Shown here: positions 10,440 through 12,415 of the stretch, in pieces
How the letters are laid out: every line of letters starts with the position of its first letter
Position numbering within the stretch: position 1 is the stretch's first letter
Virus record (IMG/VR): IMGVR_UViG_3300012936_000007
Strand: one strand, 5' to 3'
Source of the DNA: an uncultured virus (IMG/VR IMGVR_UViG_3300012936_000007)
Lineage: Duplodnaviria; Heunggongvirae; Uroviricota; Caudoviricetes
Length of the DNA: 20,000 nt
Program-made: the position numbers and the translations under genes
Notes under the pieces: model-generated
Told to the model about the DNA's origin: nothing
Seen by the model: only the letters and a program-made list of their open reading frames with translations
Databases searched by the model: none

Positions 10440-11735
10440 ATGTTTTTATCAGAAAACTTACAAGAAAAGTGGCAACCGATTCTAGAACATTCCGATTTAC
10501 CAAAAATCGAGGATAACTACAAGCGTGCTGTTACTGCAGTAATTCTTGAAAACCAAGAGAAAGCTCTACAAGAGCAGAACTTGCAAGAAGCTGCACCTTT
10601 AAATGCTACTGGAACAGGTATTTCTAACTGGGATCCTATATTAATCTCATTAGTTAGACGTGCTATGCCAAATCTCGTTGCATACGACATTTGTGGAGTT
10701 CAACCAATGACTGGCCCTACAGGATTAATCTTTGCTATGAAAGCAAGATATAATGATTATCCTTCAGGAACAAGATTAGCTAAAACCGAAGCTATGGGTA
10801 TTGACGAAGTACATTCTGATTACTCTGGCGGCCCTAACCCAACAGCTGCAGGCCCACTTGCTGCTCAGAACCAAGACCCGTTTAACGGTTCTTATGCGAC
10901 TGACACTGGTGAAGGTATGTCTACTGCAAACGCAGAAGCATTGGGTGATGTCGAAGCTTCAAACGGTTTTGCTCAAATGGGTTTCTCAATCGAGAAAGCT
11001 ACTGTTACTGCTAAGTCAAGAGCATTAAAAGCTGAGTACACACTCGAACTTGCACAAGACCTTAAAGCAATCCACGGTCTTGATGCAGAATCAGAATTAG
11101 CAAATATTCTAAGTTCTGAAATTCTTGCTGAAATCAACAGAGAAGTTGTAAGAAACGTTAACATACAAGCAAAAACTGGTGCAGCTGCAACAGCTTCTGC
11201 AGGTACATTTAACCTAGATGTTGACGCTAACGGACGTTGGTCAGTTGAGAAATTTAAAGGGTTGTTATTCCAAATCGAAAGAGAAAGCAACGCAATCGCT
11301 AAAGAAACAAGACGAGGAAAAGGTAACTTTATCCTTTGTTCTTCAGACGTAGCTTCTGCATTGTCAATGGCTGGTGTATTAGATTACGCTCCTGCTCTTT
11401 CTACTAACCTAAACGTTGATGACACTGGAAACACATTCGCAGGTGTTCTTAACGGAAGAGTTAAAGTATACATTGACCCATATGCTGGTGTTGATTACTT
11501 AACTGTAGGTTACAGAGGAACTAACCCTTATGATGCAGGTATGTTCTATTGCCCTTACGTTCCATTACAAATGGTTCGTGCAGTTGGTGAGAACACTTTC
11601 CAACCAAAAATCGGTTTCAAAACTAGATATGGTATGGTAAGTAACCCATTCGTAGGTGCTACACCTGCTGACGGTCTTGCATCTGCAGGTACTAACCAGT
11701 ACTACAGAAAATTTGCAGTTTCTAACATTCTGTAA
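10440..11735 (+). CDS. gp23: Major capsid protein
   Basis: DPILISLVRRAMPNL, GVQPMTGPTGLIFAM, KSRALKAEYTLELAQDLKAIHGLDAE and FQPKIGFKTRYG motifs. Likely maturation site LQE/AAP. Confidence 0.99.
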   Translation: MFLSENLQEKWQPILEHSDLPKIEDNYKRAVTAVILENQEKALQEQNLQEAAPLNATGTGISNWDPILISLVRRAMPNLVAYDICGVQPMTGPTGLIFAMKARYNDYPSGTRLAKTEAMGIDEVHSDYSGGPNPTAAGPLAAQNQDPFNGSYATDTGEGMSTANAEALGDVEASNGFAQMGFSIEKATVTAKSRALKAEYTLELAQDLKAIHGLDAESELANILSSEILAEINREVVRNVNIQAKTGAAATASAGTFNLDVDANGRWSVEKFKGLLFQIERESNAIAKETRRGKGNFILCSSDVASALSMAGVLDYAPALSTNLNVDDTGNTFAGVLNGRVKVYIDPYAGVDYLTVGYRGTNPYDAGMFYCPYVPLQMVRAVGENTFQPKIGFKTRYGMVSNPFVGATPADGLASAGTNQYYRKFAVSNIL

Positions 11736-11761
11736 ATCAAAAAAGTTTTAACTAACTTTAT

Positions 11762-11790
11762 AAAACCCCTCACTTCGAGGGGTTTTTTTT
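11762..11790. terminator. Intrinsic terminator after gp23, probably bidirectional
   Basis: AAAACCCCTC-ACTTC-GAGGGG followed by T8 on +. On - the same hairpin is followed by TTTTAT. Lies between convergent transcription units. Confidence 0.9.
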
Positions 11791-11803
11791 GTCTCAGATA
11801 AGC

Positions 11804-11939
11804 GAAACCCCAAGTCCTTCTAGCTCTTCAGCAGGTAACTTGGGGTCTCTTTTCTAGGAACTTCGCACCTCACTGTCGTCATCAGTTTTTGTGCCCTCGT
11901 TATATCGGGAGAGGTAGACGAACCTCGGTTTCCTAAAAA
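11804..11939 (-). ncRNA. Candidate structured RNA: four-way junction with kissing loops, plus a long hairpin
   Basis: Hand-folded stems: P1 11930-11939/11851-11860; hairpins 11911-11926, 11895-11909 and 11865-11894; loop-loop complementarity UCGUC/GACGA; second hairpin 11804-11849. Two G-U wobbles on - would be A-C mismatches on +. Confidence 0.65.
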
Positions 11940-12379
11940 TCTCCTTCAGCAACTTGGATGCAAGTAGTACCTCTTGCTCTCCACATATCGACAACTTTGT
12001 TTCTATCGTCAAAGACAATGTCGATTTTGCCACCGAACTCTTCGAATTTATCTGCAAGGTCGGATTTGAATTCTTCATCAGGTCTAAAATCACCATCAGG
12101 TCTTAAAAACAAACCTTTGTGACCGTCACCAATCCATTTTTTGATTTGTAATTCAGTAATATCTCTTTGAGATTCATTCCTCGCAGAGAAGAATGCAACG
12201 TCATCACCTCTTGCAATATGTCTTTTTGCAAGGTCGCAAACCCACTCAACAGGAGTATCGAATCTAGTCTCAGATTTGAATGACTTCCAGTCTGCAGGTT
12301 TTTGAGTAACGAAATGTCTCCTATGTTCTACATCGGCGATAGTTCCGTCAACGTCAAAAATTATAGTTTGTTTTTCCAT
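11933..12379 (-). CDS. HAD-family phosphatase resembling the 3'-phosphatase domain of T4 PseT (polynucleotide kinase/phosphatase), 148 aa
   Basis: IIFDVDGTIAD (DxDGT motif I), FSAR, LRPDGDFRPDEEFK, VFDDRNKVVDMWR and CIQVAEGDF. No kinase P-loop. True start is probably the ATG at 12379, since the ORF-track start lies inside the promoter. Confidence 0.88.
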   Translation of the reverse strand: MEKQTIIFDVDGTIADVEHRRHFVTQKPADWKSFKSETRFDTPVEWVCDLAKRHIARGDDVAFFSARNESQRDITELQIKKWIGDGHKGLFLRPDGDFRPDEEFKSDLADKFEEFGGKIDIVFDDRNKVVDMWRARGTTCIQVAEGDF

Positions 12380-12385
12380 GATTCC

Positions 12386-12415
12386 ATTATACGAAAAAAT
12401 GCAACCCATTGTCAA
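12386..12415 (-). promoter_or_regulatory. Sigma70-type early promoter for the phosphatase unit
   Basis: TTGACA (12415-12410), 18-nt spacer, TATAAT (12391-12386), A-tracts upstream. The ATG begins after 6 further nt. Confidence 0.88.

What the first reader, a model, noticed from the sequence alone, without database searches (positions are those of the whole stretch)
11851..11939. Candidate novel structured RNA: cloverleaf-like four-way junction with a kissing loop, beginning at a phosphatase stop codon
Seen on the minus strand: a 10-bp closing stem UUUUUAGGAA/UUCCUAGAAA that contains the UAG stop of the HAD gene. It encloses three arms: GAGGU-UCGUCU-ACCUC, CCCG-AUAUAA-CG(A)GG, and GCAC-AAAA-ACUG-AUGACGA-CAGU-GAG-GUGC. 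The loops of arms 1 and 3 are complementary (UCGUC/GACGA). The stretch is GC-rich against an AT-rich genome, and a U-G wobble favours the minus strand. Arm 1's ACCUC can alternatively pair with GAGGU in arm 3, so two conformations are possible. Known: UCGUC and UGAC are the U-turn loop sequences of the VS ribozyme I/V kissing interaction, though I see no VS catalytic loops. An arm1-arm3 contact is also topologically like the tRNA D/T-loop elbow. Inference: a tRNA mimic or decoy, a ribozyme, or a nuclease-blocking fold. I do not recognise it as a named family.
Basis: partly seen in the sequence, partly recalled or inferred. Interest (0 to 1): 0.85.

Follow-up and report, generated by a model that had tools for sequence, protein, structure and literature searches.

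The report
Conserved four-armed RNA in marine phages
Just after a small phosphatase gene, this uncultured marine T4-like phage encodes a roughly 135-base RNA that folds into a four-armed junction locked by two matching loops plus a second long hairpin; related phages keep the fold through compensating mutations, it matches no catalogued RNA family, and its job is unknown.

Summary
Window 11851-11939 (minus strand) folds exactly as described. It is the 5' domain of a ~135-nt element (11801-11939) that also holds a long second hairpin with an invariant apical sequence.

I found 26 distinct versions in uncultured marine myophage contigs. All helices, and the arm1-arm3 loop-loop pairing, are kept by compensatory changes. 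G-U pairs and folding energies point to the minus strand as the RNA strand.

There is no Rfam 15 match, no tRNA call and no match to T4 rnaC/rnaD. Cultured relatives lack it.

It lies behind a consensus sigma-70 promoter and a leaderless HAD/PNKP-type phosphatase gene. In two distinct relatives it lies upstream of tRNA-Glu, in one of them also tRNA-Asp. The four-way-junction module has been swapped as a cassette between divergent phages.

Not conserved: the stop codon inside the closing stem and the two-conformation idea. No ribozyme or tRNA-membership evidence was found.

Best reading: an early-made, self-contained stable structured RNA. Function is inferred, not shown.

The parts
12386..12415 (-). 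Sigma-70-type promoter (TTGACA, 18-nt spacer, TATAAT) driving the HAD gene and, by inference, the RNA element
   Evidence: 12 of 12 consensus matches. The ATG at 12379 lies 6 nt after the -10 hexamer. A like arrangement is found in 62 of 75 related loci with enough upstream DNA.
11933..12379 (-). HAD-superfamily phosphatase gene of the polynucleotide kinase-phosphatase (PNKP) type. The true start is most likely ATG 12379 (leaderless); the stop is TAG 11935-11933.
   Evidence: Pfam HAD_PNKP E 4e-26 and PHROG polynucleotide kinase families. Translation. The TTG at 12415 listed as the ORF start is the -35 hexamer.
11851..11939 (-). Four-way junction domain. P1 11930-11939 with 11851-11860; P2 11922-11926 with 11911-11915; P3 11906-11909 with 11895-11899; P4a 11891-11894 with 11865-11868; P4b 11883-11886 with 11872-11875.
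   Evidence: MFE fold and pair list. RNAalifold on a structure-blind MAFFT alignment of the 9 type-A sequences predicts the same junction: 32 pairs, 22 with double changes. Pair counts.
11917..11921 (-). Loop 2 kissing bases (UCGUC)
   Evidence: Pairs with 11876-11880. The helix is paired in 86.5% of cells, and 3 of 6 pairs show compensatory changes across 26 sequences. Cognate loop pairs average -3.87 against -1.60 kcal/mol for non-cognate pairs; 0 of 5000 permutations were as low.
11876..11880 (-). Loop 4 kissing bases (GACGA) in the 7-nt loop of arm 3
   Evidence: As for loop 2.
11804..11849 (-). Hairpin 2: a 10-13 bp basal stem, an internal loop, and a short apical helix (11820-11834) capped by GAAG. 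It carries the invariant stretch CUGCUGAAGAG.
   Evidence: Present in 26 of 26 distinct members. The basal stem is paired in 94.8% of cells, with 8 of 12 pairs changed on both sides. CTG.AAGAG columns are invariant.
11762..11786 (.). Bidirectional intrinsic terminator between the convergent gp23 and HAD units. It is context, not part of the conserved element.
   Evidence: It is absent where the element sits between two same-strand genes (L164, L136, L145).

Best explanation
This is a gene-like, non-coding RNA module of about 135 nt, carried by one clade of uncultured marine T4-like myophages whose capsid gene is closest to those of pelagimyophages and the OM43 phage Melnitz.

Shown: it has two domains. 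The first is a four-way junction whose first and third arms carry complementary loops that co-vary. The second is a long hairpin whose apical part is invariant in sequence. The transcribed strand is the window's minus strand. The element is not tied to one neighbouring gene. Its junction domain has been exchanged between phages as a cassette.

Inferred: in the window it is transcribed early by host RNA polymerase from a consensus sigma-70 promoter, as the 3' part of a leaderless phosphatase mRNA that ends at the bidirectional terminator. The loop-loop lock makes a compact, nuclease-resistant particle. This particle persists, possibly after cleavage in the U-rich stretch just 5' of P1. It acts in trans as a stable small RNA, with the invariant apical part of hairpin 2 as the surface that binds a protein or RNA partner.

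It belongs functionally with the small stable RNAs that phages keep beside their tRNA genes. What it binds is not known.
For: Fold and chance: (z -2.77).

Family: 24 of 80 loci that encode a relative of the HAD protein carry the element. Pattern scans plus covariance model R1 gave 48 matches of 57-140 bits in the 92 sources searched, of about 170 loci then held with duplicates left out. These reduce to 26 distinct sequences.

Covariation, all 26 sequences: 79.5% of cells paired against 40-57% when partners are slid; 30 of 42 pairs changed on both sides; score 0.355 against 0.146 in shuffles, with 0 of 500 shuffles reaching it.

Covariation, 9 type-A sequences on a MAFFT alignment not fitted to any structure: 91.2% paired against 28-42% slid; 22 of 38 pairs changed on both sides.

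Kissing loops: (GC 21/AU 5; UA 19/CG 6; UA 14/CG 8/GC 2).

Strand: the given strand is more stable in 25 of 26 sequences, and 110 of 842 helix pairs are G-U.

Non-coding: lengths are 133-139 nt, and stop-free runs on the RNA strand have a median of 24 codons. The open reverse-strand frames of different members read the invariant motif in different frames (by inspection).

Promoter and leaderless start.

Independence from neighbours: the element is found after the HAD gene plus a terminator; after the HAD gene and before tRNA-Glu (L029, L140), with tRNA-Asp also seen in L029; after an NT5C-type gene and before a small gene; and behind a 1-kb ORF-poor stretch.

Cassette exchange: the window's flanks are 89-100% identical to L001/L002, but the junction is 78-81% identical over 51-61% of its length. 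The junction is 91% identical over 96% to L176, whose HAD gene is only 75-77% identical.

One contig of an RNA library joins 84 nt of the HAD 3' end, identical to the window, to 67 further letters. The 30 of these that were shown match the start of the other junction type.
Against: No direct evidence of a discrete stable RNA. The metatranscriptome data are contigs without strand or ends, and DNA carry-over cannot be excluded.

The sequences are related, so shuffle controls overstate significance. Only about 10 versions are strongly different.

RNAalifold on the model-fitted alignment of all 26 recovers only 17 pairs. On the 17 type-B sequences it recovers 23 pairs, without P1 and P4. I attribute this to mis-register between subtypes, but did not prove it with a corrected alignment.

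Within type A, the kissing helix shows no double change in any of its 6 pairs.

The kissing is weak in 7 of 19 loop combinations: L044/L133, L007, L013, L145, L099 and L078, at -0.1 to -2.0 kcal/mol.

Arm 2 is only 2-3 bp in type B.

In three contexts no terminator follows the element and a gene starts 17-30 nt after it, which would also fit a cis-acting leader.

No partner is known.
Confidence: 0.5

Rival explanations
1. Self-assembling RNA. Loops 2 and 4 pair between molecules, not within one, giving dimers or closed rings. This would resemble the phi29 packaging RNA and the ROOL/GOLLD phage RNAs. The swapped junction cassettes would then be compatibility types.
For: Covariation cannot tell intra- from intermolecular pairing. 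In ROOL and GOLLD, phage RNAs found near tRNA islands, kissing loops first seen by covariation proved to be bridges between chains (passages of bioRxiv 10.1101/2024.12.08.627333). Loop pairs differ between junction types while each stays self-complementary. The junction is exchanged as a unit. In type B2 all 5 bases of loop 2 would pair, which may be easier between molecules.
Against: No structural or biochemical data. The element is far smaller than ROOL or GOLLD. A conserved internal loop in arm 3 could supply the bend needed for an intramolecular kiss. Arms 1 and 3 of a four-way junction can lie side by side.
Confidence: 0.15
2. Cis-acting 3' element of the upstream mRNA: a structured block against 3'-to-5' exonucleases, or a processing signal that sets the mRNA's life-time. 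No trans function.
For: It lies directly after a stop codon in most contexts. The upstream genes differ: a PNKP-type HAD gene, an NT5C-type gene, and an unnamed gene. In the window it sits between the stop codon and the terminator.
Against: A terminator hairpin already follows. A covarying loop-loop lock and an 11-nt invariant apical sequence are far more than exonuclease blocking needs. In L078/L153 it is separated from the HAD gene by about 1 kb without ORFs. It is absent from 56 of 80 relatives of the same gene.
Confidence: 0.13
3. tRNA mimic or decoy. The junction imitates the tRNA L-shape, with the closing stem as acceptor and the loop kiss as the D/T elbow. It would be handled by, or titrate, tRNA-processing enzymes or tRNA-targeting host nucleases. 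The neighbouring 3'-phosphatase would belong to the same RNA-repair theme.
For: Four arms, with a contact between arms 1 and 3. Same-strand tRNA-Glu lies 105-110 nt downstream in L029 and L140, and L029 also has tRNA-Asp; L060-62 have these two tRNAs at the same place without the element. The neighbouring gene is the phosphatase domain of the T4 Pnk type. T4 Pnk's role in tRNA repair is recalled knowledge.
Against: ARAGORN finds no tRNA. The Rfam tRNA model gives no hit, even at E<=10. There is no T-loop or D-loop consensus, no CCA, and arm lengths are unlike tRNA (by inspection). Arm 2 is a 2-4 bp stem with a 4-8 nt loop, so there is no anticodon-loop look-alike. In L164/L136 the neighbour is a deoxynucleotidase-type gene, not an RNA-repair gene.
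Confidence: 0.1
4. Riboswitch or other cis-regulator that senses a ligand or protein and controls what lies downstream: terminator read-through, or translation of the next gene.
For: Junction RNAs locked by loop-loop contacts are typical aptamer architectures (recalled). A terminator follows in most contexts. A start codon follows within about 17-30 nt in L164, L136 and L145.
Against: The junction strands vary in sequence and length between types. Downstream content is not consistent: in the window only the convergent capsid gene lies beyond the terminator. The invariant part is a hairpin tip, not a junction core. A published scan for known riboswitches in pelagimyophages found none (PMC7029224, passage read).
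Confidence: 0.07
5. Self-cleaving ribozyme, whose 2',3'-cyclic phosphate product would be a substrate of the adjacent phosphatase.
For: Only circumstantial. Small ribozymes are often junctions with loop-loop contacts, and the neighbouring enzyme is of the family that heals such ends (the chemistry is recalled).
Against: No ribozyme family of Rfam 15 was listed over the element, even at E<=10; the only ribozyme-type row is a chance-level archaeal RNase P match in the HAD gene. None was found in 7 relatives at E<=0.01. No hammerhead, twister or hairpin core is conserved: the CUGA.GA-like string sits in a hairpin tip without the matching GAAA/stem arrangement (inspection). The neighbouring gene is not constant.
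Confidence: 0.04

Closest known systems
Phage T4 species 1 and species 2 RNAs (rnaC, 139 nt; rnaD, 119 nt)
   Same: Small, structured, non-tRNA RNAs of a T4-like phage with similar length. They are encoded with tRNA genes on the same strand, and their function is unknown (annotation; tRNA-adjacent contexts here).
   Different: No sequence or structure homology: model R1 gives no match better than 9.3 bits in the T4 tRNA region, and none on rnaC or rnaD. rnaC folds with a T-arm-like hairpin, which this RNA lacks. In most genomes this RNA is not next to tRNAs.
ROOL and GOLLD RNAs of phages and prophages
   Same: Phage-borne, often near tRNA islands, function unknown, and held together by covarying kissing loops (passages read).
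   Different: Those are several times larger (GOLLD members often exceed 800 nt) and are in Rfam. Nothing in Rfam 15 matches here. Multimerisation is untested for this RNA.
phi29 packaging RNA (pRNA)
   Same: A phage RNA of about 120 nt with a helical junction and two loops that are mutually complementary and co-vary. This is recalled; pRNA papers appear in the reference list seen.
   Different: pRNA has a three-way junction, its loops pair between molecules on the portal, and it belongs to phi29-like phages. T4-like packaging needs no RNA (recalled). No homology was tested or seen.
tRNA
   Same: A four-arm cloverleaf closed by a terminal stem, with a tertiary contact between the loops of arms 1 and 3.
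   Different: It fails ARAGORN and the Rfam tRNA model. The contact is a 4-6 bp Watson-Crick kiss. There is no anticodon-type arm and no CCA, and a conserved extra hairpin is attached.
Candidate structured RNAs predicted from IMG/VR (Fremin, Bhatt, Kyrpides 2023, PMC10690425)
   Same: That screen took intergenic regions of the same viral contig collection and reported 8,495 unnamed candidates of 29-151 nt (Results section read).
   Different: The main text does not describe this motif. The files that hold the alignments could not be opened, and the two spreadsheets searched held no match to the motif or to three of my contig ids. So it may or may not already be listed there under a number.

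Membership tests
tRNA / tRNA-like gene | Recognised by tRNA gene finders and the tRNA covariance model | tested here: not met
   ARAGORN finds 0 genes in the window. There is no RF00005 hit at E<=10 over 11650-12050, while true tRNAs in L029 score 61-64 bits.
tRNA / tRNA-like gene | Four-arm cloverleaf with a tertiary contact between arm 1 and arm 3 loops | tested here: met
   The contact here is Watson-Crick kissing, not the D/T elbow.
tRNA / tRNA-like gene | Conserved T-loop and D-loop bases, 7-nt anticodon loop on a 5-bp stem, 3' CCA or discriminator | tested here: not met
   By inspection of the alignments: loop 4 varies and has no T-loop consensus; arm 2 is 2-4 bp with a 4-8 nt loop; CUAGA follows the closing stem.
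Any Rfam 15 family (riboswitches, ribozymes, sRNAs, Y-RNA-like, IMES, manA/wcaG and others) | Score at or above the family's gathering threshold | tested here: not met
   0 matches in the whole window. Over the element, the only row at E<=10 is IMES-1 at 10.6 bits against a threshold of 81. 7 relatives gave only their tRNAs at E<=0.01.
T4 rnaC / rnaD | Homology in sequence and structure to the T4 RNAs | tested here: not met
   R1 with filters off on the T4 tRNA region: best 9.3 bits, elsewhere in the region.
T4 rnaC / rnaD | Encoded within or at the end of a same-strand tRNA cluster | tested here: inconclusive
   Met for L029 and L140, where tRNA-Glu follows the element (tRNA-Asp also seen in L029). 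Not met in the window or in most other contexts.
Riboswitch | Highly conserved junction or ligand-pocket bases and a constant position in the 5' leader of related genes | tested here: not met
   Junction strands differ between types. The position is mostly 3' of a gene with a terminator behind it.
Self-cleaving ribozyme (hammerhead, twister, hairpin, VS and others) | Conserved catalytic core; cleavage activity | not testable with these tools
No ribozyme model matched over the element. Whether Rfam 15 holds a VS model was not checked, and cleavage cannot be assayed here.
Self-assembling phage RNAs (pRNA, ROOL, GOLLD) | Mutually complementary loops that co-vary | tested here: met
Self-assembling phage RNAs (pRNA, ROOL, GOLLD) | The loop pairing is intermolecular and gives defined oligomers | not testable with these tools
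   No RNA 3D or complex prediction was available; this needs native gels or cryo-EM.

The most novel reading that the evidence does not exclude
A minimal, roughly 135-nt member of the class of self-assembling phage RNAs. The junction cassettes exchanged between phages would be mutually orthogonal assembly types. Other four-armed kissing-loop RNAs noted by this scan in phage tRNA operons (unchecked notes) would be further members of one wide, uncatalogued class.
Probability: 0.15. Interest if true: 0.85.

Novelty: new variant of a known kind. Interest (0 to 1): 0.6.

Why it matters
Phages have long been known to carry small stable RNAs of unknown role beside their tRNA genes; the T4 RNAs C and D are a classic unexplained pair. 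This element is a compact, well-defined new family with a tertiary contact proven by covariation, in phages related to those of the ocean's most abundant heterotrophs. Three features make it a tractable object for probing, cryo-EM and pull-downs: its small size, its two-domain build, and the cassette-like exchange of the junction domain. Together with similar notes from other windows of this scan, it hints that four-armed kissing-loop RNAs may be a recurrent accessory of phage early/tRNA regions. If the loops pair between molecules, it would be the smallest natural example of the RNA-only assemblies recently seen for ROOL and GOLLD.

Tried and rejected
**Known families**
- Rfam gathering and E-value scans found nothing over the element.
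- ARAGORN found nothing.
- The T4 rnaC/rnaD comparison gave no match.
- The cultured relatives Melnitz, HTVC008M and Mosig, searched whole with R1, gave only E 0.13-0.91, so it is absent or unrecognisable there.
- blastn of the region against named phages gave no match.

**Bacterial and archaeal genomes**
- The motif pattern gave 5 stretches. All scored 8-20 bits with R1, against 80-140 bits for members, so none is a member. The scan was limited to that pattern.

**Wider family search**
Of the 80 loci fetched, 27 were members, and only two (L220, L230) came from contigs not seen before. The other 53 had no R1 match at E<=0.001 and I took them as chance.

**Expression**
- Four marine RNA-library runs laid at 90% likeness gave no cover over 11738-11907. 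This says nothing either way. Their depth lies on the conserved capsid-gene end.

**Ideas dropped**
- Seed-target idea: the complement of the invariant hairpin-2 string has 7 matches with up to 2 mismatches in the window, one of them the element's own opposite strand, against 4.2 expected; 24 of 200 shuffles reached 7. No enrichment.
- Likeness of the hairpin-2 loop to the antisense of the capsid gene's 3' end: only 6 bases in the window itself. Dropped as chance.
- Frameshift or read-through idea: in the window the -1 frame stays open through the junction (ORF 11854-12096). In type-B relatives it stops within a few codons (inspection), so it is not conserved.
- Two-conformation idea: not conserved.
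- Coding on the reverse strand: open in some type-A members, but in different frames relative to the invariant motif.

**Limits of what I could check**
- RNAalifold on the mixed alignment recovers only part of the structure.
- Supplements of PMC10690425: the archives were too large to read, and the spreadsheets searched held no match.
It was replaced by automatic per-module folding.

Full report
**What is at the coordinates**

Its minimum-free-energy fold is exactly the proposed four-way junction:
- Energy -26.4 kcal/mol, z = -2.77, with 2 of 200 dinucleotide shuffles as good.
- The plus strand gives -23.0 kcal/mol and z = -1.34.
- The closing stem holds the TAG of the upstream ORF.
- Loops 1 and 3 are complementary.
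- The stretch is GC-richer (0.461) than the window (0.364); only 4% of 89-nt windows are as GC-rich.

**Surroundings**

The window is the structural and early-recombination block of a T4-like myophage: sheath, portal, prohead protease, scaffold, gp23 capsid (10440-11735, plus strand), tail tube, UvsY, a 2OG oxygenase and a UvsW-type helicase.
- The capsid protein is closest to the OM43 phage Melnitz (67%) and to Pelagibacter phages HTVC008M and Mosig (64%).
- The only minus-strand gene here is a 148-160 aa HAD phosphatase of the polynucleotide-kinase-phosphatase type (Pfam HAD_PNKP, E 4e-26).
- It is preceded by a 12-of-12 consensus sigma-70 promoter (12415-12386). The -10 hexamer ends 6 nt before an ATG at 12379.
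- So the TTG listed as ORF start is the -35 box, and the mRNA is most likely leaderless.
- 62 of 75 related loci with enough upstream DNA show the same promoter-ATG arrangement.
- A bidirectional terminator (11762-11786) separates this unit from the convergent capsid gene.

**The element is conserved and larger than reported**

- Of 80 viral contigs that encode a relative of the phosphatase (70-96% identity), 24 carry a recognisable copy.
- The other 56 have only a terminator, the next gene, or tRNA-Glu and tRNA-Asp at that place, as in L060-62.
- A pattern taken from that hairpin found more copies in viral and metagenome contigs.
- Covariance model R1 separates members (80-140 bits; one copy cut by a contig end scores 57) from chance pattern hits (24 bits or less) (92 of about 170 loci then held were searched, duplicates left out).
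- There are 26 distinct sequences of 133-139 nt.
- Two large contigs (124 and 151 kb) each hold one copy.

**Structure is under selection**

On all 26 sequences, with the model's structure plus the loop-loop helix:
- 79.5% of cells are paired, against 40-57% when partners are slid by 1-3 columns.
- 30 of 42 pairs have changes on both sides.
- The covariation score is 0.355, against 0.146 in shuffles; 0 of 500 shuffles reach it.

That alignment is fitted to the model and mis-registers some helices between subtypes. I therefore also took the 9 type-A sequences in a plain MAFFT alignment:
- RNAalifold, given no structure, predicts the whole junction plus hairpin 2: 32 pairs, 22 with double changes.
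- 91.2% of cells pair, against 28-42% slid.

Folding each module separately in every member gives the same local shape with different letters in nearly all cases.

Results on the other side:
- RNAalifold on the mixed alignment finds only 17 pairs.
- On the 17 type-B sequences it finds 23 pairs, without P1 and P4.
- Arm 2 is only 2-3 bp in type B.
- All these sequences are related, so the shuffle controls overstate significance.

**The kissing loops**

- Across the family the paired loop bases change together. Column pairs show GC 21/AU 5, UA 19/CG 6 and UA 14/CG 8/GC 2.
- With loops taken automatically from the module folds, the 19 distinct cognate loop pairs average -3.87 kcal/mol. The 306 non-cognate combinations average -1.60. 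None of 5000 permutations is as low.
- Exceptions: single uncompensated mismatches in L007 and in L044/L133, and weak pairing in L013, L145, L099 and L078.
- Within type A the helix is conserved rather than covarying.
- Covariation cannot say whether the loops pair within one molecule or between two.

**Strand and coding**

- The given strand folds better than its complement in 25 of 26 members (mean -39.5 against -32.6 kcal/mol).
- 110 of 842 helix pairs are G-U, which would be C-A mismatches on the other strand.
- Lengths differ by non-multiples of three.
- The RNA strand has short stop-free runs (median 24 codons).
- The reverse-strand frames that happen to be open in some members read the invariant motif in different frames (by inspection).
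- So it is not a protein-coding stretch.

**Context varies, so the element is self-contained**

It is found in five settings:
- After the HAD gene with a terminator behind it (the window and most copies).
- After the HAD gene and 105-110 nt before same-strand tRNA-Glu (L029, L140), with tRNA-Asp further on in L029.
- After an NT5C-type nucleotidase gene and 17-30 nt before a small unnamed gene (L164, L136).
- After another unnamed gene (L145).
- Behind about 1 kb of ORF-poor DNA that follows the HAD gene (L078, L153).

Neither the stop codon in P1 nor the terminator belongs to the conserved unit.

**Cassette exchange**

- The window's phosphatase gene, hairpin 2, terminator and capsid-gene end are 89-100% identical to L001/L002.
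- Its junction domain aligns to theirs only over 51-61% of its length, at 78-81% identity.
- The junction is instead 91% identical over 96% to that of L176, whose phosphatase gene is 75-77% identical.
- One contig from an RNA library carries 84 nt of the HAD 3' end, identical to the window, followed by 67 further letters. The 30 of these shown match the start of the other junction type as in L002.
- The junction is thus a module that recombines at its borders.

**What it is not**

- No Rfam 15 family matches.
- It is not a tRNA by ARAGORN or by the tRNA model.
- It is not homologous to T4 rnaC/rnaD.
- It was not found in Melnitz, HTVC008M or Mosig.
- It was not found among species-representative bacterial and archaeal genomes with the motif pattern.
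- No enrichment of sites complementary to the invariant hairpin tip occurs in the window.

**Literature**

- A pelagimyophage genomics paper reports that a scan for known riboswitches found none, and does not mention such an RNA (PMC7029224; passages only).
- A screen of IMG/VR intergenic regions lists 8,495 unnamed candidate RNAs (PMC10690425; Results and the supplement list read). Its alignment archives could not be opened, and the two spreadsheets searched had no match. Prior listing under a number therefore cannot be excluded.
- My three literature searches turned up no description of this motif.
- Passages of bioRxiv 10.1101/2024.12.08.627333 state two things. ROOL and GOLLD are phage or prophage RNAs often near tRNA islands. 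Kissing loops first found in them by covariation are intermolecular bridges.

**Earlier notes of this scan**

Unchecked AI notes describe other four-armed or two-armed kissing-loop RNAs in phage tRNA operons. They are leads only, and I did not test them.

**Mechanism**

Shown: a conserved two-domain RNA fold on the minus strand, a covarying loop-loop pairing, modular exchange, and a position behind a strong early-type promoter.

Inferred:
- It is transcribed early as the 3' part of the leaderless phosphatase mRNA.
- It is perhaps released by cleavage in the U-rich stretch kept just 5' of P1 in several contexts.
- It is stabilised by the locked junction.
- It acts in trans through the invariant tip of hairpin 2.

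My estimates:
| Reading | Probability |
|---|---|
| Stable trans-acting RNA | about 0.5 |
| Intermolecular assembly variant | 0.15 |
| Pure cis 3' stabiliser | 0.13 |
| tRNA decoy | 0.10 |
| Riboswitch-like regulator | 0.07 |
| Ribozyme | 0.04 |

**Verdict**

This is a real, uncatalogued, structured RNA family of narrow spread: about 30 viral contigs plus metagenome copies, all from one marine myophage clade. It is a new family within the known kind of phage accessory small RNAs. Function is open. Interest is moderate to high.

Noticed in passing
window 12379-12415 (minus strand): A perfect TTGACA-18-TATAAT promoter ends 6 nt before the ATG of the HAD gene. The mRNA is therefore probably leaderless, and the TTG 'start' at 12415 is the -35 box. 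62 of 75 related loci keep a promoter-ATG arrangement of this kind.
   Followed up: partly
window 11854-12096 (minus strand): An 80-codon ORF in the -1 frame of the HAD gene runs through the whole junction and ends in its closing stem, behind a U-run at the HAD stop codon. In type-B relatives this frame closes within a few codons, so it looks accidental.
   Followed up: partly
L078:1010-2060 (also the 516 nt before the element in L153): About 1 kb without convincing ORFs lies between the HAD gene and the RNA element. It has no tRNA and no Rfam match at E<=0.01. It could hold further unknown RNAs or decayed genes.
   Followed up: partly
L029:1277-1538: tRNA-Glu and tRNA-Asp lie downstream of the element on the same strand. 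A terminator-like hairpin stands before tRNA-Glu, and a short hydrophobic mini-ORF of about 25 codons lies between the two tRNAs (the ORF was read by eye).
   Followed up: no
L164:675-941, L136 and L145 (gene after the element): A small protein of about 70-105 aa, alike in the three loci by eye, follows the element in three contexts. Only the L164 copy was scanned, and it has no Pfam family.
   Followed up: partly
window 11762-11786: A 10-bp hairpin flanked by an A-run and a T-run serves as a bidirectional terminator for the convergent capsid and phosphatase units. The weak Rfam leader and sRNA hits are all due to it.
   Followed up: yes
window 11534-11635: Contigs of four marine RNA libraries pile up on the conserved 3' part of the capsid gene at 90-99% likeness, from many related phages. 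This says nothing about the element.
   Followed up: no
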